A DNA stretch of 64,000 nt from Lingula anatina (taxonomy: Eukaryota; Animalia; Brachiopoda), in the NCBI GenBank assembly GCA_051362555.1, contig CM120645.1, positions 620,001-684,000 of the forward strand, written 5' to 3'. This document shows, piece after piece, positions 1 to 37,200 of this stretch. Under the pieces are notes generated by a model. That model had not been told where the DNA came from. It did not search any database and was given only the letters and a program-made list of their open reading frames with translations. Each line of letters starts with the position of its first letter. Positions within the stretch are counted from its first letter, which is position 1. The position numbers and the translations under genes are program-made.

Positions 1-1594
1 ATAATAGGTGGTTGCATTGTAGGCCTAACCTTGTTCATTTTAGTCGACAGACTAAGCTAGAAGAAAGAACAGATCATTATCGCCTCTCTTTACTTAGGAA
101 CAATAAGGATGGCTAGTGGCAGCATTTATAAGTTCTTTTATTTAGAAACTTTCCGATCCCTTGTCTGGGACTGCGTCCGGGAAACGGCGATAACGACAGA
201 GACGTCCTCGAACATTTTGGACTCAGTGCAAAAAAAAAAAAAAAATCCGTTAAGAAGTAGCCTTTAAATGTCCTGGCAAATAACTTTGCGATGGCTCAGA
301 GAGTTCTAGAATGAATGACAAGCAACGACATTAGGGTTAATAATAGACTAAAAACTATCAGAGTGTAGGCCTGTCTTACTTCATTTCTAAGGCCATCTTG
401 TGATACGAGTCATGCTACACTACAAAAGAGGGGGTAGCAGTGGATGATTTAATACAGGGATACCATCGATAGTATATCAATAGAAAATCGCAATCCTCAA
501 ATGTTTTTAATTCATTAAATATAAACGGTCTTTTCTCGTACAATGGGTCTGGTATAGTTGTATTGGCCTATCAGTTGGAAACACGTGGTTCGTCTACAAT
601 TGCAAATGGCGGAGGTGCCGTGGTAGTTATTGTCGTAAAATTAGCTGGATACGGTGCACGTGAGAAAAATATTCATTAAATTTAGTTTTCGAGCGTCAGC
701 TTAATCTGGTAAAATGCGAGACGAAAAAAATGATAGATAGAGCCTTATGACCCACTGTAGAATGATGCCGAATAATACATCAACGACGTAGTTTATCGGC
801 AGATAAACGTGTTTTCATTCTCGGCTGACTGAGGAAAGGTTTGAGAGAGCATTTAAGGAAGAGGCGGTCGAACCAATAGTGAGTAGGAAGTGTGCTGCAA
901 TCAAGACGCACAATACCGATCATAAGTGGACAGCTAATAACCCCTAATTAAGCCCGGGTTACGCGCTGCTGTGTTAAGTCCTTGCTGGGAAGGGGTAGCG
1001 GCCTCCTACTGCTGTGCGTAATCAAACATTGTCTTCTAACATGCGGCTACACGACGGTTGCATTGTATTAATAAAGTAATACCTATTCATAAGGAAGGGG
1101 GCGGATGGTAATCTTACGAGAATTAAATCAGTTATCGATCACACGCGTACCAATAGTCGTGTTTTTTTTTAGCTATACGGTACGATACTATAATAACATT
1201 ACCACAGCACTTCTCTAGTTTCTCTTTTTTACGTACATATCTTTTCTGAAAAAATGTTGTCAAACTGCTCTCACCTGAACATGACATCAAAAAAATTCAC
1301 TAAAGAGAAGAATCTGATTTTGTTAAGCACAGCGTTTTGTTAAAATAGCATTGATTTCTGTTACTTAGTATTTTTGTAAAAATGTTCACATATTATTTCC
1401 ATGCACTTAGTAAACATGTTCTTACAGCAGTGTGGATATTTTCTTGTAAATATTTTGTATTTTTATACACTTGTCTCTGCTTATGTGTCAAAGCCTTGTT
1501 ATTAATTATCAACTACAATTACTGTTTTTCATAATGATTACAGGAATTTTTTTCATATGTGATTAATTTTAAAAAACAGTTAAATTGTTTTCAG

Positions 1595-1884
1595 TTCTGC
1601 ATGAAAAACAATCAAGGCTTTGTGAAAAAATCACAGAACCCTGTCTCAAGGACATGTTAAATGAGTTCCTCCAAGAAGGCATCATCACATACCGTGAAGC
1701 TGAAATGGTGAGAGCAGAACCTCCTGAACACCATGACCAAACCTCAACTACCAGGGTGGTATGTCCAGAGAAAACTGCTGTCTTCCTTGACATTCTCAAA
1801 ACCAGAGGAGATGAGGCATTTGATTTATTAAAGAAATGTCTCACTGAAAATGGACAAAGTGAGCTTGCTTCCCTCCTTAAATAA
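1595..1884 (+). CDS. Terminal CARD-encoding exon of a ROCO paralog (upstream exons not in window, or orphaned)
   Basis: Acceptor ttttcag ends at 1594. Translation (V)LHEKQSRLCEKITEPCLKDMLNEFLQEGIITYREAEMV...FLDILKTRGDEAFDLLKKCLTENGQSELA has the hydrophobic pattern of a CARD/death fold. Paralogous to 28510-28799, including the upstream intron (~1184-1594 vs ~24380-24715 plus 28417-28509). Confidence 0.7.
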
Positions 1885-2098: not shown

Positions 2099-4745
2099 AT
2101 GAATGAGAAAGGGGACATCCCAGTTACTAAGGTTGGGGAGACCACTGTCCTGGAATGCCTGGCTGCAGGGAGCCTCAAACCCAAACTGACCTGGCTCAAG
2201 AACGATAAACCACTGGGGGTGACAGAACGCCATTTCCTTACAGCCAATGACCAGTTACTGGTCATTGTCCAGACACGGCCAGAGGATGCCGGGAGGTATA
2301 CGTGTGAGATGTCCAACACTCTGGGGATGGAAAGAGGGACGTCCCAGCTGACTGTTATCAATTTGGAGTCCCCCTCACGTGGAAACAATGGCGGTGGATT
2401 GGATGACGAGTCCACAACGACAGGGATTATAATAATAGCTGTGGTGTGCTGCGTGGTGGGAACGTCCTTGGTCTGGGTGATCATTATTTATCAGACCAGG
2501 AAGAGGAGTGACACATACAGCAGTACACCTACAGGTGAGAACATGTGATATGATATTCCTTTATTGTTTTATTAGATGAAGATGTCTGTTCAGTTCTTTA
2601 TCAGTATTGGAGGGATAGGGGGGTGAAAAATATCTCACAGTGGGATGCTGCTTGGGGAAGTTGGAGAGCTACTAAAAACTTGTCATTGAGAAAGTCTGAA
2701 TGCACTATATTTCATTAAATGAAACTTCCTTTATATAAAGTTATAATAATACAAAAACAGCTATAAGTTTTTATTACCACTGCAATATTTCAGCGTCACA
2801 CAAAAACGTGGCTTTAGGTGTGCTAATACTGATGGAAAAACGGAATATTGTAATTTTGAATGCATAACACAGCTGATGATTTTTTTTTTCTGCTGGATCC
2901 TTAATAAAATATTATAACCTTTACAGATGAGACAACTTTACCTGGTGACTTGACACCATATAATCCATCAGATGAAGAACGGGAAAGCTCAAAGTCAGAC
3001 CAGTTCCTGGAGTATCAGGGACATGTGTTACCCATGTTCCAGTCACACCCCCGGTACGCCAAGGCGGAGTGTGGGCGCACGGCAGCCATCTTTCCAAGTG
3101 ATGTGGAGGATGACGATCTAAAACAGTCAGTGCCACTGACTTGTGATGAACACCAGCCGGCTGCAGAGTCAGGTTTGTACTGAGACAATTTAAAAGATTT
3201 TTTAACCTATTTTTACATTTTTAAGATTGGTTAAAAATTGTGAAGACAATTTAAACCAAATGTATCTGATATTTTATCTGCCTCAATAAGGACCATTCAA
3301 GCTTTAGGGTTAGAAACCTCATGTGAGGTATATTCTGGGGCGAGCCGAAATTACAAATTGATACCTGTCTTAAATAGAAAAAAAATAGAATAGAAAAAGT
3401 AACTTTCATGTTATCCTGTGGAGATATAAAATATTATTTTTTCTGTTTTCCACAGAGCACAGTATCAACAGTTTATCTCTGCCAAGCAGTGCGTCAGACA
3501 GTAGCTCTCCCAGCACACGGAGCACCAGCAGCACTGGACTGAACTCTCTGCAAACTTTTAACCCTCATCCTAAACTAGCCAATCACAATGGGGTCCGAGA
3601 CAGGTCACCAAGCCCAGTGGCCATGATTCATCAGCCACCGCAGTGGTTTAACGCCAGCTCCCTGCCTCACACCAGATCAACAGCAGATAGTTATCACTGC
3701 TCCAAGTCACCCACAGACAATCCAGGTATTTTTAGCATTTGGATGACATTTTCTTAGCCATTACAATTGTTTATTGTCTTTGTTTATAGATAAATAACAT
3801 TTTTCAAAATGTAGTAGTAGAGTTACTAGTTGAGATTAATAGAACACAGATAGGTCTGATTTAAGGAAAATAGTTTGTTCTTACTGGAAAAACGCCCTGC
3901 ATTTTAATTATTATAATTATTATTTTGTAATTTGGAATTATATTGAATTAAACCTTTCCTCCTTGCCACAGTACTCATGTGTCCCTGGACATAATTCTCA
4001 CACCACATCTTTATATTTGTGTTCAATTTCAGAGCCCCCTGCCCCCCACACTGCCTCCTTGCCACAATACTCATGTGTCCCTGGACATAATTCTCACACC
4101 ACATCTCACACATTGCCAATACCATATGAAGGTAATGCATTTATTTATTTGTTTATAATTTTAAAAATGCTCAGTTAACATTATGATTATGTGAGGTCGT
4201 CATTATTTCGTAACTTAACTGTTGACTTTGGTAGTATTTAGACAGATTTTTTTTATACCTATGATGCTTGAATTGATAAAAGTTTAGTATTTATGTAAAT
4301 AATGTGAATCGTTCCAGATCTGTATCCAGACTCTGAGGTTCATCCCAATCATCACTCATCCAGTGCCAGTTGTCCAAAGTCACCAAGTCACCATACCAGT
4401 AGTAATAGTAGTAGTCATCCTCAGCTCAGCCACCTCAGCTCACATCATAATATAGACTCTGGGGACATCCCCAGTGAAAACAATCATAATCACAGACACT
4501 TTGATAGTGCTGAACGCCGCCATCGCGGAAGACAAGCGCCTCCTATAGGGGGCAGGTCACAACACAAACAACATGGCGGAAGGACTTTAAGTTCTCCATC
4601 TCAACAACACCATAGACACTTGTATGTGAATCCAATGGATGAAACGTTAGAAACAGCAGGGAGCATTCCAGAGGTTGGTTTGAAATCACCTTCTTCAAAA
4701 CAAAAGGTGGCGCTGCCTCACAGGACAGGAGATGACAGAGTTTAG
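2099..4745 (+). CDS. LRIG: LRIG-family receptor, 3' exons (last Ig domain, TM, cytoplasmic tail); possibly a 5'-truncated copy
   Basis: Exons ~2097/2099-2534, 2927-3172, 3456-3725, 4033-4131, 4318-4745(TAG); the four introns are GT-AG and phase 1 and splice into one open frame. Ig motif VGETTVLEC...W...DAGRYTCEMSNTLG, TM TTTGIIIIAVVCCVVGTSLVWVIIIYQTRKR and the spliced PT/DETTLP are LRIG hallmarks. Confidence 0.85.
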
Positions 4746-13059: not shown

Positions 13060-13595
13060 ATGTCAAGAAAATTATTACCAGTCCTTTGAAACTTTTCACC
13101 TTATTCCTGGAGTCAAGGCATATTACTCCACTATTGTAGTTTTTTTTCACCCAATCCAGTATTCACGTTTATTTCAATGAAAAAAAAAATTCATTGAATT
13201 AAATTAAAATCCAGATACCCTTGTTAATATCAGGTAAAATGCTTTTCAAAAGAACTGACATATACTAAATAAATTAAGTCTGTAAATTCACATAACGTCT
13301 CTTCCTTCAGGCCAAATCTCAGACATTATCTCTTTAAGTGGTCATATGACTGCAATCTTTGTTTTTTTTCCTCTGTACTAATGCTAGAATTGGTATGTGC
13401 ATAACATTTTTACATGCTTGACTGTATCTCTTTCCACATCACTGTGTTCATATATATATACTAGTAGTTGTGTATTATATGATAACCTCCCCACCTTTTT
13501 TTAAGCTAATATCTTAACTTATAAAGTGTGTGTCTGTGTGCAGTAATTTTAGCAAAATTTATTAGTTCCTGCATATACACTTGACCATGAATTTA
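13060..13595 (-). mobile_element. Inverted relic of the EnSpm internal sequence (continues at ~20073-20240)
   Basis: Reverse complement matches ~7660-8300; the segment after 20073 matches ~7500-7650. The Helentron block splits a once-contiguous sequence. Confidence 0.7.
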
Positions 13596-13596
13596 T

Positions 13597-14079
13597 TGTA
13601 CCACCAGCGTAGGCGCTGGCAGTACACATGGTTTTAGTCCCGTCCGGATCGTTCCGCCGGCTCCACCGGCTCTGCCGGCATGTCACCGTTACCGCTTCTC
13701 CTCCTAGAAGGTAAGGGCCTCCGTACCCATCTCTTGGATTTAGGTCACCTATACTCTCAACTCGTTCCACATAAAATTTGGGCTTTGCCGGTATTGGGGT
13801 CTAGGTGTGGCACTCATTGCAATTAATGCACCCTTGTCCAAAAGTGGCAAAATTAAATACTAATTATCTACCCTACGGAAGGAATGATGGGAAAAATTTC
13901 TACTGACAGCTTTCCAAAAGTCATGTGTGTAGATTTCAAATATGCCCTTGGATTTGACCTTTGACCTTTATTTCAAGGTCAAATGGGCCAAAATTTTCAA
14001 AAAAACGAATTTTTTTACGAAAAAAAAATTATTTGCGCTGTTATTCAGACACCACACAGACTTAACCAATAATATTATT
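13597..14079 (+). mobile_element. Helentron-type non-autonomous element A (5' part only)
   Basis: 5' subTIR plus inverted repeat tgtaccaccagc-gtaggc-gctggcagtaca; colinear with 24716-25192; interrupted at a TT-rich site by element B. Confidence 0.75.
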
Positions 14080-14879
14080 AGTACCACCAGCGTGTACGCT
14101 GGCGGTACTCATGGTTTTAGTCCCGACCCGTCTCGTACAGCTCCGCCGGCTCCTGCGGCTCCGCCGGCTCCTGCAGCTCCGCCGGCTCCGCAGTCGGGCG
14201 CCGGAAATAAGTCACCGTTACCGCTTCTCCTCCTAGACCGCAAGGACCTGTGTCCCCATCTCTTGGATTTAGGTCACATATAATCTCAACTTGAACACCC
14301 TGGCTTTTTTGTCTCCGTCGGTGCACTGGCCTGGGCGTGACGCTTGTTGAAATGCACCCATGTCAAAATTTTTGAAAATTCAATGCTAAATATCTCCCAA
14401 ACCAAAGGAATTATGGGAAAAATTACTACAGAAGTCTGACTGAAAGTCATATGTGGAGATTCCAAATATGCCCTTGGATTTGACTTTTGACCTTTTTTTC
14501 AAGGTCAAACAAGCCAAAATTTTCTAAAAATGGGAATTTTCTGTAAAAAAATATTTGTTTGTGCTAATTTTTGGAAACTACGCAGCCCTAAGCTCTCCTG
14601 TTATAGTGAGGGGTTACCATTGGGGACTCCTTTCATCTGTGAGAGTTTGGGGTCAATCAGTGCATTTTCACGCGAGTAGAAGCCATTAGATACTGAAACT
14701 GAAAACTCGCTCTAAATCTGGAACGGTAAATGCCAGAGACCTCTTTTTTATTGCATTTTGTAGACCTTGTCAAGTGCAATACTGGGGGTGGTGTCCATTT
14801 TTTGTTTTTGATATGGCTTAGGCGTTGCCCTATATCAAAAATTACAACATTGCAATATTCAGTGGGGAAAATGTGAAAT

Positions 14880-16570
14880 ACTCCAAAATTAGCAGAGATA
14901 CGCCCATAGTTACTATTGAACTTGAATAGGAAGTCATATACTGGTAATCTAACTGTGACCTTGAAATTGACCTTTGACCTACTTTTCATTATGAACTGCA
15001 CTTTGCAAGTTTTCTGATCTTTATATCTCCAAAACTGGCAAAGATATGCCCATAGTTACTATTGAACTTGAATAGGAAGTCGTATACTAGTAATCTAACT
15101 GTGACCTTGAAATTGACCTTTGACATACTTTTCAGTACTGCACTTTGCAAGTTTTCTGATCTTTATATATCCAAAACTGGCAAAGATACGCCCATAGTTA
15201 CTATTGAACTTTAATAGGAAGTTATATACTGGTAATCTAACTGTGACCTTGAAATTGACCTTTGACCTACTTTTCACCATGAACTGAACTTTGCAAATTT
15301 TTCAACCCTTATATCTCCAAAACTGGCAGAGATACACCCATAGTTACTATTGAACTTGAATAGGAAGTCATATACTGGCAATCTAAATGTGACCTTGAAA
15401 TTGACCTTTGACCTACTTTTCATCATGAATTGAACTTGGCAAATTTTTGTTCCCTTTTATCTCCAAAACTATTGAACTTGAATAGGAAGCCATATACTGG
15501 CAATCTAAATGTGACCTTGAAATTGACCTTTGACCTACTTTTCATCATGAATTGAACTTGGCAAATTTTGGTTCCCTTTTATCTCCAAAACTGGCAGAGA
15601 TAGGTCCATAGTTACTATTGAACTTGAATAGGAAGTCATATAGTAACAATCTAAATGTGACCTTGAAATTGACTTTTGACCTACCTTTCATCATGAATTG
15701 AACTTTGCAATTTTTGTTCCCTTTTATCTCCAAAACTGGCAGAGATAGGTCCATAGTTACTATTGAACTTGAATAGGAAGTTATATACTGGCAATCTAAA
15801 TGTGACCTTGAAATTGACCTTTGACCTACTTTTCATCATGAATTGAACTTTGCAAATTTTGGTTCCCTTTTTATCTCCAAAACTGGCAGAGATAGGTCCA
15901 TAATTACTGTTGAACTTGAATGGGAAGTCATATACTGGCAATCTAAATGTGACCTTGAAATTGACCTTTGACCTACTTTTTATCATGAATTGAACTTTGC
16001 AAATTTTGGTTCCCATTTATCTCCAAAACTGGCAGAGATAGGTCCATAGTTATTATTGAACTTGAATATTAAGTCATATACTGGCAATCTAAATGTGGCC
16101 TTGAAATTGACCTTTGACCTACTTTTTATCATGAATTGAACTTCGCAAATTTTGGTTCCCTTTTATCTGCAAGACTGGCAATGATATGTCCATAGTTATT
16201 ATTGAATTTGAATAGGAAGTCATTAAAGTCAATTTACTGTGACCTTAAAATTGAGCTTTGACCTACTTTTTACCATGAACTTAACATTGCAAATTTTGGT
16301 TCCCTTTTATCTCCAAAACTGGCAAAGATACGCCTATAGTTACTATTGAATTTGAATAGGAAGTCACATACTGGCAATCTAAGTGTGACCTTGAAATTGA
16401 CCTTTGACCTACTTTTTATCATGAATTGAACTTGGCAAATTTTGGTTCCCTTTTATCTCCAAAACTAGCAGAGATAGGTCCATAGTTGCTATTGAACTTG
16501 AATAGGAAGTCATATACTGAAAATTTACTGTGACCTTGAAATTGACCTTTGACCTACCTTACTATGAACT
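14880..16570 (+). repeat. 146-bp tandem satellite array (~11-12 units)
   Basis: Repeated unit atctccaaaactggcagagataggtccatagttactattgaacttgaataggaagtcatatactggcaatctaaatgtgaccttgaaattgacctttgacctac...; one unit is internally deleted near 15465. Confidence 0.95.
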
Positions 16571-17265
16571 AAACTTTGATTGTACCATTTTTAGTTATAT
16601 ATATTTTTTTGCATTTTTTGAGAATTCTTGTTGATTGCATTTTTTTACAGATTGTCAAGCACAAGACTGGTGGTGGTGTCCCTTTTTTGTGTGTGTGTGG
16701 GTCAATACGATCACACTTACTCCAGCTGGTGGTACAATATTTGTAGGCGGTATCCAGCGTTTGACACTCACACTCGCCAATGCGAGTTAAAATTAAATCT
16801 GGCGAGTGAAAATTATGGTGCAAGTCGCCATTTTGGCGATTTATGTCAACTTACTGTATTAATTATGTTTATCGGCAAAATTTAGACCCAATTTAAGTCC
16901 AACTCGTATGCCAAAATTTACAGGGAAGTTCATGGGATTACCCTTACTGCTAACCTCGTTTTCACTTTCATAATCGTGATTGGTTGAAGTTGGGGAATTC
17001 CGTAATGACGTATTCACAGTCTCGCTGTTGTTTTTGAAAGCATCTAGCCTTCGTTTGCACGCCGGATTTTGACGAAGTATAGGAAATGCTGTCTGTTTCG
17101 TTTCACTTACGTCTTGCGATTTTGCGCAGTTGACGCTTCCGGGAGAAAACGTGATGCACGTGGATCATCAAGCTGCATGGAGAAGTTTTTAAAAATTTCA
17201 AAACGCCAAGTAGAAGAGACTGAGAGTGAGAGCGTTGCAGAATCAGCTTCAACTTCAAGTGGTAA

Positions 17266-18717: not shown

Positions 18718-18875
18718 TTATTAAGACCCCATATCTGAATGGTCTACTGGTTTGTCCCAATTGTTGATTTTAACGTTGTTAAATGTTTAGCTCTTTATCA
18801 CATGTACCAGTAATTGATTATGTTTATAAATAGATAAAATGTATGTGTACTTGAACAATACTAAATTATTTTCAG

Positions 18876-19468
18876 GTATAAAGATGATGTACATAGTTTG
18901 TCATGGCCTCTGGTTTGGAGAGAATACCACTTCCCTGCAGTTCAATCTGTCATTGACATTTGTCTGACTTTGCCGTCTAGCAGTGCCGAAACTGAGCGGG
19001 GCTTCAGTGTTATGAAGAGAACCAAGACAGATGGCCGAGCATGCCTACTATCAACAGCCCTCAATATCTGCATGTCCGTTGATATGCTGACACCTTCTGT
19101 GAGAGATTTTGACCCCACACCAGCTGTTGAACATTGGCTTTGTAAGTCAGTTGCTCCAAGGAGGCCACTCTTCATGGAGAATAAGAAGGGTCCTCAGATT
19201 AAGGCATATCAGTCTGAGCCATCCATTGATGTGACAACTTTCAGAGTCTTCCAGTGATGTGACAACTCCCAGTATCCACTCTGAGCCATCCATTGATTTG
19301 ACAATTTCTGAGTCTTCCATTGATGTGACAACTCCCAGTATCCACTCTGAGCAGGCAGAGATGTCAGACAGTGACAGTGATGAGGGGTTTGATGACTGTT
19401 ATAGTGATTCAGATGAAGAGAATGAAATGACTGAGAAGGATGTGGAGCAGTTTTTAAGACAAAATTGA
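18876..19468 (+). pseudogene. hAT transposase C-terminal dimerisation-domain exon, frameshifted
   Basis: ICLTLPSSSAETERGFSVMKRTKTDGRACL matches the hATC motif LPxSSAxxERxFS; acceptor ttcag at 18875; frameshift near 19257 within short tandem repeats, followed by an acidic tail. Confidence 0.85.
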
Positions 19469-20606: not shown

Positions 20607-20697
20607 GTACATAAGACCTCCAGCAGCAGAAATGTTGGTAATAGCTGGTGTCTGACTTCACCTATCTTAATAGATATCCAGAACTAACAGACTGAAG
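20607..20697 (+). other. Probable non-coding 5' UTR exon of the ROCO gene
   Basis: tttcag| acceptor and |gtatgt donor around a 91-bp segment; next acceptor caatttcag at 21419 precedes the ATG at 21551. Confidence 0.4.
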
Positions 20698-21550
20698 GTA
20701 TGTCATCATGTATGAACTGATATATTGCCTAATTAAATTTTATTTTATGTAACCTTTAATATTAAATACATTTAATTTGCTCTAAGTACAATTTTTATGT
20801 TAACCACCCCAAATCCTGATCATAAACTTTTGTGATGCAAATGAATATATTATAATTTATAACATTAATTTGAGAAATTTTAAAAGAAAGTCATTCATGA
20901 ACGCTATCCATCCAGCTTTTCATCAGTCTTTTCCTTATTATTTTTTTCAGATAACTCATATTTTGTCCAAATGCACATTTAATCCACATAAGGTAATAGA
21001 GTTACTGCCTACTCAACAAAAATTGTATATCAAGTTAAAATGCTTGAAATACATGATTTACCAGAGTACTTATAAATGTAAACTTGCCTTTTGTCAAGTG
21101 AAACCACATGGAAATAATTTTATTGTGGAATTTTTTGCCACAAAATACCATATATAATTATGTTGTGCATAGCTGATTAAGTCAAACAAAAGAAGTGCAT
21201 GTCACACTTTTTGTATCATATTATATTTTATTTCTTTCACACAAAGACAACAAAACAGTAGACCTATGACTTAGTTATGTATTTTAAGATAAGGTACCTG
21301 TCATCAGAGGGAAGTAGAGATAAAATGTTTTATTTTGTCAACAAAACCCCAATACTGTGCATGACTCATTTTTAACAAAATTAAAATTTTGCTACCAATT
21401 TATCTTTTTTCAATTTCAGACAAAGAAAAGACAATAAAAGACATGTATGCACAGTAATGGAGGAAGTCAAAGAACATTTAGCACATTTTCCAAGTGACCA
21501 TATATAACATAAAGCAGTGACATTTCTTCCTACTGCTCCATTCCTGAGAC

Positions 21551-24500
21551 ATGGCTTACAGACAAGTAACAGCAGGTAGAGAGAGTCTTGATGTCTTACA
21601 TAGGCTACAGTTGTCTCCACAGTCCACGACACCAGACACTGTGCTGGAGTGGACTGAGCTTCATATAAACTATGCTTATATATACAACCTACCAGAGTCC
21701 ATTGACAGGTGTAAAAATGTTAAGAAGATCAATGCAGCATGCAATTGGTTATCTTCTTTACCACAGTCCATATCCAAACTGCCATACCTCACAGTGTTGG
21801 ACCTATCCCACAATGCCTTCACTACATTCCCCAAAGCACTGTGTGGCTTGACTAACCTAAAGATGCTGTACCTGAATAACAACCAGCTATCTGACATACC
21901 ATTGGATATCACTAGTATGACAAGACTTAAAATATTCAGCCTCCATCACAATGCCTTCACTACATTCCCCATAGCACTGTGTGGCTTGACTAACCTAGAG
22001 GAGCTGTACCTGAATAACAACCATCTATCTGACATATCAGTGGATATCACCAGGTTAACTAAACTTATGAGTCTTAGTCTGGGTTACAATAACATCACCC
22101 ACCTGCCACCTCAGATGAAGAGTATGGAAAGTCTAAGACAACTAGTTGTGAAAGGTAATCCTCTTGTACAACCACCTAAACATATTGCCAGTAGGGGACT
22201 AGATGCTATCAAGAGGTATTTTGAGGCATTAGCTGACACCAAGGCAATCCAGTCAAGTAGAATACAGGTCAACTTTCTTGGTGAAACAGGAGCAGGAAAA
22301 ACTAGCATTTCTCGTACATTGCAACTTGGACAGTCTGCCCTCACAAAGAAGGCAGACAGGACAAGAGTGGTGGAGCAGAGAACATGGGTATTTGACCAAG
22401 ATATTGCTTTTAATATGAATGACTTCGGTGGACATGATGTCTATAAGATTGGCCATCCTATTTTTATATCCAAACATGGTTTGATTTTGATAACATTTAA
22501 CCTTTGTAAATATGACCCAAACAATGAGGCTCATTACCAGCTCTACATTGGAAACTGGATTGACAAGGTGCAAGCACAGATGCCAGGGATAAAAATGGCA
22601 CTTGTTGGAACTCATGTTGATAAAGTTGATGATGATTTGAGAAGTGCAAAATGTTTGGTTTTAAAGAAAGAACTTACAGTTCACAAGAGGAAAAAGCAAG
22701 AATGGTTTGAAACTCAAATGAAGAAAACCAAGCTAAAAATATCAGAAACAGATCCAACACAAATTTCCGTACTCGAGGCCTACAAGAACAAAGTTGACAA
22801 GCTGCATACCTTAAAAGATCAAGTAATTGATATCCATGAGCATATATTCCTGGTGAGTTCTAGGACCAAAGAAGGACTTAATGAGCTAAAACACTATCTT
22901 ATTTCTTTTGCAAGACAGCATGCAGTCATTCTACCAGGGATGTGGGTTGAAGCAGCCACTGCCATCTATGAAAAAAGGCAAGATAGTGCTGAAAATACAC
23001 TTAACTTGGATACTCTTAAACAGGCTCTAAGCATACAGTTTAAGCCAAAATCTTGGAGGACATTCATTATGAAGTGGGTGCGCTACTCCAAACAGGATAT
23101 TGACCAAAGAGTCTATGAGATCCTTTCCTTCTTGGCCCACCGTGGAGACATCATCTGGTTTGAGACAAGTCCCTTGCTACAACAGACAGTATTTCACAAG
23201 CAAGAGATCCTTGCAAATCTTCTCAAGGCAATCCTAAATCATGACATGGATGCTACCATCAGGACCCTGCAAGATTCACTGACAATGACAGCACCCAAAA
23301 AACATGATTTAATTGAAGATCTGAGAACAAGGGGAATGGTTTCCAAAGAAGCCATGTTTTGTTTGTGGCAGTCTTTCGATCTCCGTACTGAAGAAGAAGA
23401 TGCCATGACAGAACTCCTGAAGAAACTGGAGCTGTGCTATCAAATCCAGGATGAAGAATCCCTTCCATCCAATACTTCATTCCACTTTCCATGGCTCCTC
23501 ACTGAAGAAAGACAAGCTGAACTAGACACCAAATGGCCCAGCAAGGTTCCCCCCGACACCACACAACTTACCCTGCAGGTTCTCTTTCCATACAGATGTC
23601 CAGATGGCTTATATGAGAAATTTTCTGTCCGCCAGCACAAACACCTTGGACTCATGAAGACCATGCGAATGGATTGGAAGGATGGAGTGTATGCAGAACT
23701 TGAAGGATGCAAAATGCAGCTTACGCGGGGGAAAAATCAGCAAAATCCTGATCCAGTTAGCCAAGATCCAGACTGGGTTATCAGCATTGCTGTCCGTGGA
23801 TCACATCGCTCAGACATGTGGCGTGTTCTCACACAAGGTCACAGTGACCTCGTGGCCATCATTAAAGAGGACTGGCCTGGGCTGTCATATGACAAGTACC
23901 TGGTGTGTCCCCACTGTGTGAGTGAGGACAGTGAGCACCCAACCCTCTTCCCTGGAGAGATACTTGACCAAACCAATGGAACAGCTTCCAAATCAAGACA
24001 GGTGTCATGTATCAATACTGGTGTCTCCATTCCTGCTGACCTGGTCTACCCACCACACCTGGTCATGAGCTGGCAGGAAGGTAAGCACAGTACTATTATG
24101 GCCTTAAGTTTAACCCAAAGATTCACCAGTTTCTATTTTTAATGTCTCTATTTTCAAAAATATTGCCAATCTGCCCTCACCTGAATGTGACTTCCAAAAA
24201 AAATTTACTAACAAGAAGGGTTATTTTGTGTGATTTTTCTCATTTTAATGAGAAAGTGCAAAAAAAGTGCAGTATTTTAGTTACATGCATAATAATGCCC
24301 CCAATGATTGACCTCCCATATCATAGTATGTACATGTGTCATCTCCATGCACTTACTTTTAACTTAAAACATGAAAATAAGTACTATGAGAACATTATCA
24401 CAAAGATTCACTAGTTTCTCTTTTTTATGTACATATCTTTTCTCAAACATGTTGTCAAACTGCCCTCATCTGAACATGACATCCAAAAAATGCACAAAAG

Positions 24501-27500
24501 AGAAGAATCTGATTTTGTTAAGCACAGCATTTTGCTATAATAGCACTGATTTCTAGTGTTTAGTATTTTTGTGAAAATGTTCACATATTATTTCCATGCA
24601 CTTAGTAAACATGAAAATAAGTGTTTTTACAGCAGTGGGGATTTTTTCTTTTAAGTGTTTTGTATATTTATAAACTTGCCTCAGAATCTACCTATGTTGA
24701 AGCCTTGTTATTAATTGTACCACCAGCGTAGGCGCTGGCGGTACACATGGTTTTAGTCCCGTCCGGTCCGTTCCGCCGGCTCCGCTGGCTCCGCCGCCAT
24801 GTTACCGTTACCGCTTCTCCTCCTAGACGGTAAGGGCCCCCATACCCATCTCTTGGATTTAGGTCACCTATAATCTCAACTCGTTCCATGTAAAATTTGG
24901 GCTTTGTCGGTATTGGGGTCTAGGTGTGGCATTCATTGCAATGCACCCTTGTCCAAAAATGGCAAAATTAAATGCTAATTATCTACCCTACGGAAGGAAT
25001 TATGGGAAAAATTTCTACAGACGGCTTTCCAAAAGTCATATGTGTAGATTTCAAATATGCTCTTGGATTTGACCTTTGACCTTTATTTCAAGGTCAAACG
25101 GGCCAAAATTTTCAAAAAAATGAATTTTTTTACGAAAAAAAAATTATTTGCGCGGTTATTCAGACACCACACAGACTAACCAATAATATTATTGGAAAAT
25201 GTTACCCTTCAGGTCATCTTTCATCTCCGTGAATTTGGGGTCAATTGGTGCATTTTCACGGGAGTAGCGGCCATAAGATACCGAAACTGAAAACTGTCTC
25301 TAATTTGGGAACCGTTAATGCTAGAGACCCATTCTTTTTTGCATTTAGTAGAGCATGTAAAGCCCAACACTGGGGGTGGTCTTCGTTTTTTTGTATTCCA
25401 TACGGTTTTCGAGTTACGCTTTATCAAAAAGTACATATTGGTGGTGAAAGCAAAATGTGCAGGCTTGGCAAAGCAGACGACTTGTGGTCAAAAATGACAT
25501 TATTTCATCAAATTTGAACATCTGGAACTTCAGAGCACCTCCCATTTCAAGAATTTTGACCAAAATGACCTTTTCTTTATCTTAATTAATTTTTTTCTGT
25601 AGAAAATTTATGGCACACTATGGTAACTCCAAAATTATACCATTTAGTCCCTTATATCTCCAAAACTGGCAGAGATAGGTCCATAGTTTCTATTGAACTT
25701 GAATAGGAAGTCATATACTGGCAATGTAAATGTGACCTTAAAATTGACCTTTGACCTACTTTTCACCATGAACTGAACTTTGCAAATTTTGCTTCCCTTT
25801 TATCTCCAAAACTGGCAGAGATAGGTCCATAGTTTCTATTGAACTTGAATAGGAAGTCATATACTGGCAATCTAAATGTGACCTTAAAATTGACCTTTGA
25901 CCTACTTTTCACCATGAACTGAACTTTGCAAATTTTGCTTCCCTTTTATCTCCAAAACTGGCAGAGATAGGTCCATAGTTTCTATTGAACTTGAGTAGAA
26001 AGTCATATACTGGCAATCTACATGTGACCTTAAAATTGACCTTTGACCTACTTATTATCAAATTTATTTCTCTTTTAACTCCAAACCTGGCAGAGATAGG
26101 CCCATAGTTACTATTGAAGTTGAATAGGAAGTCATATACTGGCAATCTTAAAGTGACCTTAAAATTGACCTTTGACCTACTTTTCACCATGAACTGAACT
26201 TTGCATATTTTGCTTCCCCTTTATCTCCAAAACTGGCAGAGATAGGTCCATAGTTACTATTGAACTTGAATAGGAAGTCATATACTGGCAATCTATATGT
26301 GACCTTAAAATTGACCTTTGACCTACTTTTCACCATGAACTGAACTTTGCAAATTTTGATTCCCTTTTATCTCCAAAACTGGCAGAGATAGGTCCATAGT
26401 TTCTATTGAACTTGAATAGGAAGTCATATACTGGCAATCTACATGTGACCTTAAAATTGACCTTTGACCTACTTTTCACCATGAACTGAACTTTGCAAAT
26501 TTTGCTTCCCTTTTATCTCCAAAACTGGCAGAGATAGGTCCATAGTTACTATTGAAGTTGAATAGAAAGTCATTAGTGGCATTTTATTGTGACCTTAAAA
26601 TTGACCTTTAACCTACTTTTCACTATGAACTGAACTTTGCAAATTTTCGTTCCCTTATATCTCCAAAACAGGCAGAGATAGGTCCATAGTTACTATTGAA
26701 CTTGAATAGGAAGTTATAAACTGGCAATCTAAGTGTGACCTTGAAATTGACCTTTGACCTACTTTTCATCATGAATTGAACTTTGCAGATTTTGCTTCCC
26801 TTTTATCTCCAAAACTGGCAGAGATAGGTCCATAGTTACTATTGAAGTTGAATAGGAAGCCATATACTGGCAATCTAAATGTGACCTTAAAATTGACCTT
26901 TGACCTACTTTTCATTATGAACTGAACTCTGCTAATTTCTTTCTCTTTTAACTCCTAACCTGGCAGAGATTGGTCCATAGTTACTATTGAACTTGAATAG
27001 GAAGTAATACACTAGCAGTCTGTGACCTTGAAATTGACCTTTGACCTACTTTTGCATGTTTTCTGGCCTTTAAATCTGCAAAATTGGCAAAGATATCCCC
27101 ATGGTTGCTATTGAACTTGAATAGAAATTCATATACTATGATATTGAAATTGACCTTTGACCTACTTTTTCACCATGAACTGAGCTTTGCATATTTTCTT
27201 GCCTCTCATATCTTTAAAACTAGCAGAGATGTGCCCTTTGTTTCCCCTAGGTTTTCTCTTTTGTCAGCATATATGCACCATTGACAACACATTTCAAGGA
27301 AAACCAATAGGCCTTTTGTCTAGATAATACAGTAGTGATCAAGGGTAGGAAAATGCAAGTCAATTCGAAAATCTGCTTGATTGTACCATTTTTAGTTATA
27401 TTTTTTTGCATATTTTGAGAACTCTTGTTGATTGCATCTTATAGAGCTTGTCAAACACAATGATGATGGTGTCCCTTTTAGGAGGGGGGGGGGGTCCATA

Positions 27501-28799
27501 CGAATGCGCTTACTCCAGCTGGTGGTACAATATCCGGAGGCGGTATCGCCTCTCTGATCCTCTAGTTTGTTTAAGTGGAATCTAACTAGGACATGAGCCG
27601 ACCAGCCCCAACACAGCGCCGGATACAAGTCAGCGTTACCGTTTCTCCTCCTAGACCGCAAGGACTGGTGTCCCCATCTCTTGGATTTAAGTTGCATATA
27701 ATCTCAACTTGAACCTCCTGTTTGTTTTTTTTTGTTTTTTTTTTTTTTGTCTCAGTCGGTTCATTGGTCTGGGCGTGACACTTGTTGAAACGCACCCTTG
27801 TCAAAAATTTAGAAAATTCAGTGCCAAATATCTCCCAAACCAAAGGAATTATAGTAAAAATCACTACAGAAGTTTGCCCGAAAGTCATATGTGAAGTTTC
27901 CAAATATGCCCTTGGATTTGACCTTTGACCTTTATTTCAAGGTCAAACAGGCCAAAATTTTCTATTAACTAGAATTTTTTTCAAAAAAATATTTGTCTGT
28001 ACCAATTTTCAGAAACTTCAGAGACCTAAGCTTTCAAATTATAGTGATGTGTTACAATTAGGTACTCCTTCCATATCTTTGGGAAATTTTGGGTCAATCA
28101 GTGCACCTTCACAGGAGAAGCAGCCGTTAGATAATTTTTTCCATACGTGTTAGGAGTTGTGCTGTATGAAAAAGTACATTGCAATATTCAGTAGTGAAAT
28201 AAAATGTGAAATACTCCAAAATTGGCAAAGATACACCCATAGTTACTATTGGCCTTGAGTAGGAAAAATGATGATTATCTACAAAAAATGAAAACCCTTT
28301 TTTACTGCATTTCCTACATGTCCCCCCTTCTTTTTCTTTCCCATACGAATGAGCTAACTCCAGCTGGTGGTACAATACCAGGAGATGGTATTGCCTCTCT
28401 GATCTTCTATAGCTAGTTATCAACTATAATTAATATTTTTACAAACTGACTATAGGATTTTTTTTCCTTAATGAATAATAAAAAAAAAAAACAGTTTATT
28501 TGTTTTCAGTTCTACATAAAGAAAAATCAATTCTTTGTGAAAAAATCACAGAACCCTGTCTCAAGGACATGTTGAATGAGTTCCTGCAAGATGGCATCAT
28601 CACCCTTCGTGAAGCTGAAATGGTGAAAGCAGAGCCTCCTCAACACCATGACCAAACCTCAACTACCAGGGTGGTATGTCCAGAGAAAACTGCTGTCTTC
28701 CTGGACATTATAACCAGGAAACCTGTCAGGGCACACGATACACTTTGTCAATGTCTTCAGGAACAAGGACAGACTGATCTTCTTAAACTGATCAAGTAA
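21551..28799 (+). CDS. LRR-Roc-COR-CARD protein (ROCO family, MFHAS1-like core), ~939 aa; exons 21551-24080 and 28510-28799
   Basis: About 7 LRRs (LxxLxLxxN); Roc motifs G1 GETGAGKT, G2 RT, G3 DFGG, G4 GTHVD, G5 VSS; COR region ending in CPHC. Donor gaag|gtaagc at 24080 (phase 1) joins in frame to acceptor ttttcag| at 28510, giving SWQE/VLHKEKSILCEKITEPCLKDMLNEFLQDGIIT (CARD). Confidence 0.88.
24716..27565 (+). mobile_element. Complete Helentron-type element C with 146-bp satellite, in the ROCO intron
   Basis: 5' tgtaccaccagc hairpin; 3' gctggtggtacaata, palindrome ggaggcggtatcgcctct, then ctag|ttt. The empty site survives in the paralog at ~1500 (aagccttgttattaattatcaactac). Confidence 0.85.
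25650..27240 (+). repeat. 146-bp tandem satellite array (~11 units)
   Basis: caaaactggc recurs at 25661, 25807, 25953 (period 146); same family as 14880-16570. Confidence 0.95.
27570..28416 (+). mobile_element. Helentron-type element D, 5'-truncated, no satellite array
   Basis: Homologous to the body of element B; own 3' subTIR cagctggtggtacaata at 28361, palindrome and ctag end. Confidence 0.75.
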
Positions 28800-29112
28800 G
28801 GGAAATTTTCCTAGTCATGCATGTCATTTCACATTTGATTACTGTTAGCTAAGCATTACATGATATTGCTGCTTTAGTATATTAAAAATTTTGTATTTCT
28901 GACATTGTCGCATGCCTCTATATGAAGATACACTGTCACTGATATCTATTTTTCTGATCTGATGGGTCACTTCCTACTACCAAAAAGAGGGCCATGAGGA
29001 AGACAGCTTTGATATTTACCATGTTTTAACATTTAACAATGATATAAAAAAATTAAAAAATGAAATACCCATAACCTTTATTTGCAGACAGTCAAAGATA
29101 TCTATTTTTCAG

Positions 29113-29688
29113 GCCATCAGTTGACGTGTTACTTCCTGTTACCAAAAGGACTGGCAGGTCTTTGGAAAGCACAATTGTTCCTTCAGCTGAGGGCAGAGAA
29201 TATGAAGTTGACACAGAAATGGCCTGTTTTTCTAGATGTGTCAGGTTTTTCAGTTGTTGCAAAAGATGAATAAGATTTTTAATTTATATTTTGAGGTTCG
29301 TTACTTAATTAATTTTAGATTTGAAATTGTCAACGTATGGTTTATGGAAGGTCAGCTTTGTAATATATGTTTGCAGAGAACACTTTGGAGCTGATATTGA
29401 ATCTAAAGTAGTAGATGTATTAAATACCTTAGTTGAGGATAGAATGGATTACTATGTCATTGTATGTGCCATCTGCTCAGTGGCGGATATTCGCCAGCTG
29501 TTTCAAGACACCACCCAGGTCAGGGGCAAAAAGTGTTACAGTAAGAGTGAAGAAGATTCAAAAGTTTGTCCTCACCAAACTGCATGTTGCCTTCTTTTTG
29601 ATGCAACCAAGTGGCCCTCACAATCAAGTTCTCATGTATACCTGCATGAATATGTTGGAAAACATTGTTGGGAAATCAATTTTACATG
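29113..29688 (+). pseudogene. Unassigned two-exon gene fragment, apparently frameshifted
   Basis: Exons 29113-29244 (132 bp) and 29377-29688 have canonical splice sites and compatible phase (PSVDVLLPVTK...MACFSRCV/REHFGADIESKVVDVLN); family not recognised. Confidence 0.35.
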
Positions 29689-33896: not shown

Positions 33897-34263
33897 AATT
33901 CATTATGTCGCACATAAAAAAAGCACACTAGGTGATCAACAAGACGGCGGTGATCTCCAACTCACGAACTCCTGTTGACGTGGATTACTCGAAATAATGA
34001 ACTAATTATTCCAATTAGCGTGACGGTTACAACGGCATGCCCTACCGTGACTCTAAGTATTCTTGTTTGCCAGCGCTCAATGCACGCTACTCGAGTGTAT
34101 ACCTCAAGACTTATGCAAGGCCGGCAACGTGATTCAGTAATTTCTTGCTCAGTGGCTAGAAATCGTATCTTCCAAGAAGAGTGGGAGATGTATAAATGAC
34201 CAGCAAACGCTGATCTGCGTCACTTATGTGCAACGACTGCACAGAGTTTTCAAAGTCAAAAAC

Positions 34264-37200
34264 ATGATGATCATCCGCCTTGCTTTAAGCGCGCTGATAA
34301 TTGTTCATCTTGCCCATGAAAATGGTCAACTTGCCGGATTAGCCCAAAAGTCGCCCAACGTTGAGATTTGGACGCTTGCAGGACTCACGGGGGACCCAAA
34401 GCGTCTACGAGATGGAGTGCAAGAGATAACCACTAAAAGGGCGCCCATTACTGAGGGAAGAATTCACAGGGGAATCACACAGGAGTCGTCCACTGATGAG
34501 GGTAGAATTCAAGAGGGAACCACAGAGAAGTCGGCGCCCACTACTGAGAGGGGAGTTCACGTCACACAAGAGATGCCAACCACTAAGGGTGGAATGCACA
34601 ATGAAGTCAGTCAAAAGGATACATTTCGTGAAATATCTGATAACGGCAGCGAAACCTCTTCTTTCCCAGACGTCACTCTGACGCCGTATAGATGGCTCTG
34701 TGCAAAAAGTGGTAAATACAGCATCCAGGTCCACTGCAACTGCGATCCCGTGTGTGTCCTGTATGGTGACTGCTGTTATGGGGTGATAGAAAATGCTACT
34801 GTCTGCGCTGCCTCTGTCAGATTAAGAGGGACATACGACACAATGCAATCTGCAACTGTTCCTGGAACCAACGTGGCAGAAGTTCAAAGTGACAGCACCA
34901 CCTCGCCTGCATCCCCAAACAAAACATCTTCGATAAGGGGGAAAAAACAAGTCGATCCTGTGTCTATTTCTCTGGCACATAAAAGCTCCTGTAGAAAAAG
35001 TCCAACATTATATCTAAGAAAACGACAAACCACACCACCCTATGTGGATAATTATGCACTGAGTTTTTGGATGGTGGACCAGTGTCCCAAGTCTTGGCTG
35101 GAAGAGGAAAGTCGTATTAAGTGCACTGATACCTCAAATAGTAGCTTCACAGAAGAACCTCTATTGTACCAGCCAGTCACCGACCCGGATACGATGATCA
35201 CTTTCAAGAACAAGTACTGTGCAACCTGTAATGGTATCAAGGGTGGTTGGGAACCGTGGGAACTCGCCGTCTATTCCACTAAGTACTTACCATTAGACTT
35301 CTTTGCAAATTGCAGCTCCTCGGATTGCGCGTTAAAAAGACTAAAAGATGTCGGAGGTAATGCTATTTTCGAGCCGAAACCGGAATGGAATTTAAGAACA
35401 TGCTTCAAGGAAGTTGGGGACGATGTCTTTGGTCCTTGTCAGTTCACTTTTATCAATGGAAGCGTGCGTCGTGTACCTCGTCCACTCCCCCTGCACTCAG
35501 CTTTACGAGATGCCTGTATGACGTACAACAACCCTGTTGTCATTGGCGCTTTTGATAACAGTTACAAGAACTTCCACTGCCTGGTGTGTTATCTGGGTGA
35601 TTTTCTACTCTGTGAAGGTGAGTGGTACGTTGAAATATATAAGACGTCATATGTAAACAAATTAGAACCGTGTATTATTGGCGTGAATAATTTTCAATAA
35701 CCATCCTTGCCTCCTTCGTAATATCAACTAGTAGGATTGTGGAACCTAAGAAATAAAATATACTTGATCAGGAAAACATTTTTGTTTTCTAGAGGCGTAG
35801 GTTTGGCCTGTGTTCCCTAGATAAATGGTATAATTCAGTTTCGCCAATAATATCACAAAGAAAATGGCTTAATGTAATTGATATTGCCAAGATTCATTTT
35901 ATGTTGTGTGATATCTTTTGAATCAGTTTATGTGTGGAAATTACATACATACCTGAAGGTAGGAGAAATATCAGTTTAAATAAGATTTCATTTATAATCC
36001 AGCAAAGGCAACTATTGATTGTATATTGACGGAAAACTGACATGAATTACTGAGAAAGTTGCGTTTATTTGTGGAGATATGAAGGAAGCCATTAGCACTC
36101 CGATATAAGGTATATTAGCTTTTGCAGCTTGGGATTGAGCGTTATGTACTACACTTGTTTTGTATAATAGCAGTCAGTGTTAAGATCGAGTATCTGTTAA
36201 GTTAGACGTAAACGAGCGTGGATTCCAATTGACGTACATAAAAAACTTTTAATAGTGTCCCAAACGACAAAAATAAAATCGATATGCCAAGGGATAAATA
36301 ATAATAATAATAATAATAATAAAAATAATAATAATAATAATTTTTATTATTTATTTATAGTCTAAAATCCATATATAAAATGTTCAGTAGACTTTACATG
36401 GGTAAAATGACTAAAATAAATGAAAAGGTAGTTAAAATTATAAGTTATGAACTAAAGATGTGAACTAAAATGTAATTGAATTGATAAGATATCAAAAATA
36501 AACTGTACAGTGTAAAAGACAACAGCCAGTCAAATCGATTGTAAAGTTTTTTGAAGATATAAGTTTTTAATTATTTTTTAAAATTGTCCTCAGACTATTG
36601 TTTTAAAATAAATAGGGAGATCGTTCCACTCAATTGGCCCATAGACCTGCAGAGCAACATCACCGTACGCTCTGAATCTGGAATTACAAGGCGTTAAATC
36701 GAACCGATCACTCCAAAAAGCATGGAACGATGTCCTTTGGACTCTGTAGTGGCCGTACTATTTGAAAGCCTACGGTGGCGTATTTCAGGTTTTGAGTTAA
36801 AACCACGGACTTTAAATGCGCCTGTAGATGGGAGTATATTTTTGAACATCAAAAATGGCAGAATTTTGTTATTAAAAAAGGGCTTAAATGTCTCACACGC
36901 GTTTTTGGTTTGCTAGGGAGTAATTAACTAATTAAATTGCTACTCAAGGAGGCGTGTTAGACAGTTAAGATGATTACACTGAATGCATTTTAGCAGCTCG
37001 ATCCATCTGTAGTCCAGGAATTTGGTGAAAAATTGTGCATTTTTTACCTACAAGCATGAAATTTGGCACACTTATGGACAATGAAATTCTAAGCAAATCT
37101 GGATATATGTGCATGTCTGAAAATTCAAAAATGGCCGTCAAATCCAAGATGGCCGCCGAAATACCTTTTCAAATTAAAACTTCAAGTACATAGTCTTCTA

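What the first reader, a model, noticed from the sequence alone, without database searches (positions are those of the whole stretch)
21551..28799. ROCO protein with a C-terminal CARD: NLR-like sensor-switch-effector layout built on a GTPase
Seen: the 863-aa ORF reads through a donor at 24080 and splices in frame to a CARD exon 4.4 kb away. Established: MFHAS1 is LRR-Roc-COR with no death-fold domain, DAPK1 pairs Roc-COR with a death domain, and NLRs pair LRRs, an NTPase and a CARD. Inference: an intracellular immune receptor in which Roc-COR dimerisation replaces NACHT oligomerisation to cluster CARDs. A second CARD exon at 1595 points to a tandem family.
Basis: partly seen in the sequence, partly recalled or inferred. 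Interest (0 to 1): 0.75.

Follow-up and report, generated by a model that had tools for sequence, protein, structure and literature searches.

The report
Brachiopod GTPase-switch cell-death sensor family
A lamp-shell (brachiopod) gene, one of about two dozen similar copies, carries variable leucine-rich repeats and an LRRK2-type GTP switch that are most likely spliced to a cell-death recruitment domain (CARD), and it likely acts as an inside-the-cell danger sensor that would switch on caspases in an animal reported to lack the usual activator Apaf-1; that job is untested.

Summary
ORF 21551-24142 is LRR-Roc-COR with intact GTPase motifs. A GTAAG donor after 24080 joins in frame to a CARD exon at 28510 (Pfam 3e-10; model matches caspase-1, NLRC4 and Apaf-1 CARDs, Z about 12). 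The window is Lingula anatina or very close. Its RefSeq holds a lineage-specific family of such genes: 15 of the top 24 hits carry a CARD, 9 with the same junction. No read across 24080/28510 was displayed, and the RNA reads come from alleles or paralogs 90-95% alike. Reads add a further exon (28795 to 29113) giving a 51-aa Cys-rich tail. The CARD at 1595 is likely the last exon of a paralog left of the window. The layout is not unique: Roc-COR with CARD is in print for Trichoplax, sits in amphioxus records, and this scan met it on other DNA; LRR-Roc-COR-effector proteins were already proposed as NLR-like. It is not an NLR (no NACHT, reversed order). 'Dimerisation clusters CARDs' is unproven, since a bacterial Roco monomerises on GTP. 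What seems undescribed is the expanded, mosaic, LRR-variable family in a species reported to lack Apaf-1, PIDD and ASC but to have six caspase-Y paralogs.

The parts
20607..20697 (+). 5' non-coding exon (3' end from reads; 5' end inferred from an AG acceptor)
   Evidence: Joint from 20697 (GT) in 8 reads of run X7, continuing with the letters that follow the acceptor at 21419/21420; sequence
21551..24080 (+). Large coding exon part: N-cap, LRRs, Roc GTPase, COR-A, COR-B (843 codons plus 1 base); the exon likely starts at 21420
   Evidence: RNA depth from related alleles or paralogs
21716..22204 (+). LRR region: six 23-aa repeats by pattern, including a 138-bp two-repeat tandem duplication
   Evidence: Pfam, TRF
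22268..22621 (+). Roc G-domain core with P-loop GETGAGKT, DFGG and GTHVD motifs; a helical hairpin insert and the last strand follow
   Evidence: Pfam Roc 9.5e-10; motifs; LRRK2 Roc hit 1.9e-10; homolog model
23093..23974 (+). COR-A and COR-B
   Evidence: Pfam; the homolog P0010 model matches LRRK1, C. tepidum Roco and LRRK2
24081..28509 (+). Phase-1 GT-AG intron; 24716-28413 is an inserted repeat element with a 146-bp tandem core, absent from the paralogous intron before the CARD at 1595
28510..28799 (+). CARD exon (96 aa); ends at the stop at 28799 or is spliced at 28795
   Evidence: Pfam CARD 3e-10; model pLDDT 80; VIA Z 12.3 to caspase-1 CARD; RNA depth in 3 of 4 runs
29113..29269 (+). Extra coding exon part: 51-aa tail with a Cys-rich end (990-aa form); the 3' UTR follows
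   Evidence: Joint 28795 to 29113 GT..AG in 5, 4 and 10 reads of X7, X8 and X9, none in X3; translation
1595..1884 (+). Second CARD exon, likely the last exon of a paralogous LRR-Roc-COR-CARD gene left of the window
   Evidence: Pfam 1.9e-12; shared intron sequence; 90% to the CARD of XP_013416859, whose next accession XP_013416860 on a contig of the same length is the truncated LRIG piece that follows here

Best explanation
This is a kinase-less Roco gene of a Lingula-specific expanded family whose LRR-Roc-COR exon is most likely spliced to a C-terminal CARD, and whose protein likely works as a cytosolic danger sensor that would recruit and activate CARD caspases. Shown: the domains, intact GTP-binding motifs, the CARD fold, the family expansion, variable LRR number and surface, and expression of close family members. 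Inferred: the LRR concave face binds a microbial or damage ligand; this shifts the Roc nucleotide state and the COR-dependent monomer/dimer or higher-order state; the CARD is freed or clustered and binds the CARD of a caspase-Y or of the CRADD adaptor, activating it by proximity. The Cys-rich tail of the 990-aa form would tie the platform to a membrane (speculative). Which nucleotide state is 'on' is unknown. By the C. tepidum precedent the GDP or empty dimer could be the resting state, so release of the CARD on GTP binding is as likely as clustering by dimerisation.
For: Domains and motifs. CARD fold: the top rows are caspase-1, NLRC4 and Apaf-1 CARDs at Z 12.1-12.3, rmsd 1.5-2.1 over 80-83 residues; the best DED is at Z 8.5. 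Family: the top 24 hits are all L. anatina, 15 with a CARD; 21 Lingula rows form one clade, SH-aLRT 99 in a quick tree. LRR count by pattern runs from 4 to 17. Entropy at concave exposed positions is 2.41 against 0.75 bits (type A, 45 repeats) and 2.0 against 1.25 bits (type B, 45 repeats) in 12 proteins. The best-matching paralog changes from segment to segment. Relatives carry CARD, two CARDs, Death, OTU, GT4 or a caspase domain in the same slot. L. anatina is reported to lack Apaf-1 and caspase-2, lophotrochozoans to lack PIDD and PYCARD; Lingula has six caspase-Y paralogs and Owenia has a caspase-Y with a ROC pro-domain (PMC11463336 passages). Precedent for a GTPase with a C-terminal CARD: zebrafish Gbp4 (PMC4932187 abstract).
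Against: No ligand, partner, induction or phenotype was tested. No read across 24080/28510 was displayed, and almost no read matches this allele (at least 99% alike: 6 of 846, 20 of 590). CtRoco monomerises on GTP (PMC5714945 abstract), which runs against a simple activating dimer. Lingula is reported to have classical CARD-NACHT-LRR NLRs (PMC11508797 passages) and CRADD (PMC11463336), so the Roco family is not needed to explain caspase activation. Concave LRR positions vary in many non-immune LRR proteins (general knowledge), and entropy across paralogs is not a test of positive selection. The caspase-fused relative P0261 is an old gene model that could be a mis-join.
Confidence: 0.5

Rival explanations
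1. The family is a set of MFHAS1-like signalling scaffolds or CARD decoys that dampen or tune caspase, TLR or stress pathways rather than sense invaders.
For: Human MASL1/MFHAS1 is a GTP-regulated scaffold bound to HSP60 (PMC3995007 abstract). Mollusc and annelid relatives have a Death domain in the same slot and few copies turned up in my searches. The CARD has a loop insert of variable length and swapped C-terminal halves among paralogs.
Against: Strong lineage-specific expansion, LRR number and surface variation, and effector swapping in relatives fit a receptor arms race better.
Confidence: 0.22
2. The family is functional, but this copy is a silent or decaying paralog in a birth-and-death array.
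For: At the best-supported differing sites nearly all reads carry the other letter (for example 61 of 62 X7 reads at 22290). No RefSeq protein among the hits is above 68% over the whole length, or 82% over 57%, while the neighbouring LRIG piece is 98-100% identical. It has only six LRRs and a 3.7-kb insertion in the intron.
Against: An 843-codon open exon, intact G motifs, and canonical splice sites at all three introns, including the read-supported 28795/29113 sites. Among 46 displayed coding differences to reads, 16 are synonymous against 21.6% expected (p 0.027) and none is a stop (a selected subset).
Confidence: 0.2
3. The main product is the unspliced 863-aa LRR-Roc-COR protein without a CARD.
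For: The frame stays open for 20 codons past the donor; 2 of 24 homolog models also read through.
Against: The read-through tails are not conserved. Depth falls from about 27 to 0 between bins 23922-24118 and 24119-24315 in X7 and is 0 there in all four runs (weak, because paralog introns would not map). The CARD exon is covered by reads, and most full-length paralogs are modelled with the CARD.
Confidence: 0.05

Closest known systems
L. anatina RefSeq 'MFHAS1 homolog' proteins (XP_013412426, XP_013416859, XP_013397950 and others)
   Same: Same LRR-Roc-COR-CARD order, same junction, 55-68% identity over the length for the closest dozen
   Different: Database models only. None has the window's tail among the 407 proteins held, and the window's copy is a mosaic of several paralog types.
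Trichoplax adhaerens ROCO repertoire (Civiero et al. 2014, PMC4104024)
   Same: At least 17 ROCO genes with CARD, death, TPR and LRR domains around Roc-COR (section 5 read)
   Different: The figure was not seen, so whether LRR and CARD share one protein there is unknown to me; another lineage, not included in my trees.
Amphioxus and mollusc kinase-less Rocos (XP_019643705 LRR-Roc-COR-CARD; XP_019625512 with Death; Biomphalaria with a weak Death match)
   Same: LRR-Roc-COR plus a C-terminal death-fold domain
   Different: Only 26-30% identical in Roc-COR; amphioxus copies fall outside the Lingula clade and also carry OTU, GT4 or caspase domains.
Bacterial LRR-AP-GTPase-COR-effector conflict systems (Kaur et al. 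2021, PMC8195603) and brown-algal LRR-ROCO candidate receptors (PMC11378527)
   Same: Proposed sensor-switch-effector logic with rapidly evolving LRRs (passages)
   Different: No animal CARD version in the passages read. Algal LRRs lie one per exon, whereas here all LRRs lie in one exon.
NLRs (NLRC4, NOD1/2) and Apaf-1
   Same: Repeat sensor, NTPase switch and CARD in one chain
   Different: Ras-like GTPase instead of a STAND ATPase; CARD C-terminal and LRRs N-terminal; no known ring-forming module.
Zebrafish Gbp4 (PMC4932187)
   Same: GTPase with a C-terminal CARD whose GTPase activity is needed for inflammasome activation (abstract)
   Different: Dynamin-like GBP without LRRs, and it needs Asc, which is reported absent outside vertebrates.

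Membership tests
ROCO family | Roc G-domain directly followed by COR | tested here: met
   Pfam Roc, COR-A (under the cut-off) and COR-B in order; LRRK2 Roc hits; the homolog model matches LRRK1, CtRoco and LRRK2 at E 1e-29 to 1e-24
ROCO family | Intact G1, G3, G4 motifs | tested here: met
   GETGAGKTS, DFGGH, GTHVD, as in paralogs
ROCO family | GTP binding and hydrolysis; COR-mediated dimer | not testable with these tools
   Needs biochemistry
Kinase-less LRR-Roco (MFHAS1-like architecture) | N-terminal LRRs, no kinase | tested here: met
   no kinase family reported for the ORF
Vertebrate MFHAS1 orthologs | Roc-COR groups with vertebrate MFHAS1; no C-terminal death fold | tested here: not met
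   In two quick trees the Lingula clade does not group with fish MFHAS1 (deep nodes weak); a CARD is present
CARD (death-fold superfamily) | Six-helix death fold closest to CARDs | tested here: met
   Six helices, pLDDT 80; Pfam 40.4 bits against a cut-off of 23.9; VIA top rows are CARDs. Foldseek had no match at E 0.001 or better; its best was the Apaf-1 CARD at 0.022.
NLR | NACHT or NB-ARC STAND ATPase | tested here: not met
   No such family at E 0.1 or better for the ORF; the switch is a Roc GTPase
NLR | N-terminal effector, C-terminal LRRs | tested here: not met
   The order is LRR, Roc, COR, CARD
NLR (works like) | Ligand-triggered oligomerisation that activates a caspase or kinase | not testable with these tools
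   Inference only
DAPK1 / LRRK1/2 | Protein kinase domain | tested here: not met
   No kinase in the ORF, the CARD exon or the tail

The most novel reading that the evidence does not exclude
Lingula has built a polymorphic, recombining repertoire of two dozen or more GTP-switched LRR-Roc-COR-CARD receptors that act as its main platforms for activating caspase-Y, a GTPase-based stand-in for the lost Apaf-1 apoptosome and for inflammasomes, with alternative lipid-anchored tails aiming some of them at membranes.
Probability: 0.25. Interest if true: 0.8.

Novelty: new variant of a known kind. Interest (0 to 1): 0.47.

Why it matters
How CARD caspases are activated in molluscs, annelids and brachiopods, which are reported to lack Apaf-1, PIDD and ASC, is an open question (PMC11463336 proposes CRADD). 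This family gives a concrete candidate that can be rebuilt in cell culture with the six Lingula caspase-Y paralogs. It is also a compact, kinase-free animal Roco with a simple read-out (CARD exposure), which could show what the Roc-COR nucleotide cycle does in LRRK2-type proteins. If the tests fail, it is an ordinary lineage-specific expansion of MFHAS1-like genes that is already in RefSeq.

Tried and rejected
No whole genome is held, so paralogs could not be counted genome-wide; counts come from RefSeq-derived hits clustered at 90% identity and may include alleles. The run search listed no indexed RNA holder, only 9 raw-read runs with the same species label; 7 of the 9 were laid (X7 twice), 6-30% of each. 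The two sides of the long intron were laid separately, so no 24080/28510 joint could appear; loose-end tables were cut to the top rows (39 and 42 rows hidden) and showed none at those places. The complex prediction for two copies of the COR-CARD part of homolog P0010 gave 'no answer' (score 0.00, alignment not used); it is no evidence either way. The CARD search among longer proteins found only 8 hits among 67 candidates, all Lingula family members and no caspase or adaptor (weak search). The CARD had only E of about 0.6 to Apaf-1 by sequence in the PDB. The tail had no meaningful match among the 407 proteins held. The careful tree did not finish; both trees are quick ones, and four incomplete Lingula models (P0016, P0019, P0024, P0025) were left out. 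The CARD profile was built from the proteins it scores and is circular for them. Rejected: that the CARD at 1595 is an alternative exon of this gene (it lies upstream, with its own copy of the intron); that it is part of LRIG (LRIG homology begins mid-exon at 2126). The Lingula immunome paper (Gerdol et al. 2018) is not held and may already list this family. Paper searches that showed no description of the Lingula family in their listings: (open-licence library only; listings and selected passages read; no supplements opened).
Full report
Observation. The ORF at 21551-24142 is 863 aa and the longest in the window. Pfam finds LRRs, Roc (aa 240-357), COR-A (under its curated cut-off) and COR-B. 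The P-loop, DFGG and GTHVD motifs are intact and match those of paralogs, and the Roc part hits LRRK2 Roc structures at 1.9e-10. A GTAAG donor follows 24080 and a pyrimidine-rich AG acceptor precedes 28510; the join is in frame and gives 939 aa. The 96-aa exon scores Pfam CARD at 3e-10. Its model has six helices (pLDDT 80) and aligns best to caspase-1, NLRC4 and Apaf-1 CARDs (Z 12.1-12.3, rmsd 1.5-2.1, 80-83 residues), above the best DED (Z 8.5). Foldseek had no match at E 0.001 or better, but its top rows were CARDs too. Most of the 4.4-kb intron is an inserted repeat element (24716-28413) with a 146-bp tandem core; the paralogous intron before the CARD at 1595 lacks it.

Organism and family. 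The LRIG piece at 2126-4745 is 98-100% identical to L. anatina XP_013398463, so the window is that brachiopod or a very close form. Of 344 hits among 7991 scored candidates, the top 24 are all L. anatina 'MFHAS1 homolog' models, and 15 of them carry a precomputed CARD. Nine of the 24 read WQE|V into the CARD exactly as predicted here; two read through the donor with unrelated tails. Nineteen of 26 Lingula homologs align to the CARD exon, 15 from the split codon. Later searches added more Lingula members: 32 Lingula records in all, 19 with a Pfam-level CARD and 5 more with a weak or own-profile match. Some may be alleles. In quick trees of Roc-COR the Lingula rows form one clade (21 of 39 rows, SH-aLRT 99; 12 of 30 rows, 99), next to mollusc Rocos with a Death domain (support 91) and apart from fish MFHAS1. 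A natural full-length paralog (P0010) folds at pLDDT 85 and matches LRRK1, C. tepidum Roco and LRRK2.

Second CARD. It shares about 600 bases of intron and exon with the first at 84-86%. It is followed by an LRIG piece that begins mid-exon. RefSeq has the same truncated LRIG piece (XP_013416860) one accession after a full LRR-Roc-COR-CARD model (XP_013416859) on a contig of the same length, and that model's CARD is 90% identical to the one at 1595. So this CARD is likely the last exon of a paralog left of the window.

RNA. Seven of nine same-species runs were laid on two stretches that leave out the repeat-filled part of the intron. Reads cover the large exon (mainly X7) and the CARD exon (X7, X8, X9), and depth is zero just after the donor bin. 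But they are mostly 90-95% alike (at least 99% alike: 6 of 846 and 20 of 590), so they show expression of alleles or paralogs, not of this allele, and no 24080/28510 junction was displayed. Two new joints appeared. A non-coding exon ends at 20697 (8 reads of X7). A GT..AG joint from 28795 to 29113 (5, 4 and 10 reads in X7, X8 and X9; none in X3) removes the stop and adds 51 aa with a Cys-rich end (990 aa). No run covers 28844-29002, and reads that run unspliced through the stop go on in unlike sequence, so the tailed form is likely the main one for genes of this type. The five listed indels lie outside the tail frame. A lipid anchor is my guess from recalled palmitoylation and CCXX motifs, not a tool result.

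Signs of receptor-like evolution. LRR number by pattern runs from 4 to 17 among paralogs, six here (some models are incomplete). Within each of the two alternating repeat types, variation is highest on the concave face (2.41 against 0.75 bits, and 2.0 against 1.25 bits; 45 repeats each from 12 proteins). The window's own tandem repeat pair differs at 14 non-synonymous and 4 synonymous codons. The best-matching paralog changes by segment: N-cap P0004, Roc insert P0016, COR-A P0122, CARD first half P0007, CARD second half P0122 and P0005. The two CARD exons are 77-100% alike per 30 bases for 210 bases and then fall to 37-70%, and reads break at the same point (28707-28709). This fits recombination or gene conversion among copies. 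None of it is a formal test of positive selection.

Mechanism. In amphioxus and molluscs the slot after COR holds Death, CARD, two CARDs, OTU, GT4 or a caspase domain, which marks it as an effector slot. Kaur et al. describe the same sensor-switch-effector layout for bacterial LRR-AP-GTPase-COR proteins and liken the LRRs to those of NLRs (PMC8195603 passages). PMC11463336 (passages) reports no Apaf-1 or caspase-2 in L. anatina, no PIDD or PYCARD in lophotrochozoans, six caspase-Y paralogs in Lingula, and an Owenia caspase-Y with a ROC pro-domain; the passages read do not propose Roco-CARD proteins as activators. I therefore commit to a ligand-gated, GTP-switched platform that recruits caspase-Y or CRADD through the CARD (0.5). 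But CtRoco is a dimer when empty or GDP-bound and a monomer with GTP (PMC5714945 abstract), so release of the CARD on GTP binding is as plausible. Against necessity: Lingula is reported to have CARD-NACHT-LRR NLRs (PMC11508797 passages) and CRADD. Rivals are a scaffold or decoy role (0.22), a silent copy (0.2) and a CARD-less product (0.05).

Comparison and novelty. It is a ROCO by domain order, motifs and fold. It is not an NLR (no NACHT or NB-ARC, reversed order), not a DAPK or LRRK (no kinase), and not shown to be an MFHAS1 ortholog despite the database label. ROCO genes with CARD and death domains are in print for Trichoplax (PMC4104024 section 5; figure not seen); ROCO-TIR and ROCO-Death-TIR proteins for Aplysia (PMC9334734 passages); expanded LRR-ROCO candidate receptors for brown algae (PMC11378527 passages); and a GTPase-CARD inflammasome protein for zebrafish (PMC4932187 abstract). 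Two earlier notes of this scan describe LRR-less Roc-COR-CARD genes in other genomes. Eight searches listed no paper on the Lingula family, but Gerdol et al. 2018 is not held and no supplements were opened. PMC6321704, PMC6337361 and PMC8662601 (passages) and PMC3995007 (abstract) added only background.

Verdict. A real gene of a real, database-known but apparently undescribed brachiopod expansion: a new variant of a known kind. Interest 0.47; 0.8 if it proves to be a GTPase-based caspase-activating receptor repertoire (probability 0.25).

Noticed in passing
window 2126-4745 +: 3' part of an LRIG gene (third Ig domain, membrane helix, tail exons), 98-100% identical to L. anatina XP_013398463 but starting mid-exon 240 bases after the CARD at 1595; RefSeq has the same truncated piece (XP_013416860). 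Likely a partial duplicate.
   Followed up: partly
window 13590-16760 and 24716-28413: Related non-coding repeat elements with a 146-bp tandem core; copies in the intron end in a short hairpin followed by CTAG or similar, which recalls non-autonomous Helitron-type elements (label recalled, not tested). The intron seems to hold two nested or adjacent copies.
   Followed up: partly
window 1-1185: Sequence unrelated to the Roco intron sits directly upstream of the intron remnant of the CARD at 1595; possibly another insertion separating that CARD from its Roc-COR exon.
   Followed up: no
window 34141-35700 and 61374-62063 +: A 519-aa frame with a signal-peptide-like start, a Thr/Glu-rich stretch and a weak Somatomedin B match (E 0.0036), and a 229-aa Cys-containing frame with a hydrophobic end; possibly exons of one surface protein.
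   Followed up: no
window 18865-19257 +: Frame resembling the C-terminal end of a hAT-type transposase (motif recalled, not tested), about 1.3 kb upstream of the gene's non-coding exon.
   Followed up: no
protein P0029 (XP_013421530): A Lingula protein with the same N-cap and LRRs as this family but a Nal1-type peptidase-like domain in place of Roc-COR-CARD: the sensor module appears to be shuffled onto another effector.
   Followed up: no
proteins P0250, P0251, P0261, P0266, P0301 (amphioxus): LRR-Roc(-COR) proteins ending in GT4 glycosyltransferase, OTU, caspase, OTU plus GT4, or two CARDs; the two-CARD form is conserved across several Branchiostoma species.
   Followed up: partly
window about 22620-22840 (after the GTHVD motif): A helical hairpin of about 65 residues is inserted in the Roc domain of the homolog model and is among the least conserved segments between paralogs (median 40% identity); role unknown.
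   Followed up: partly
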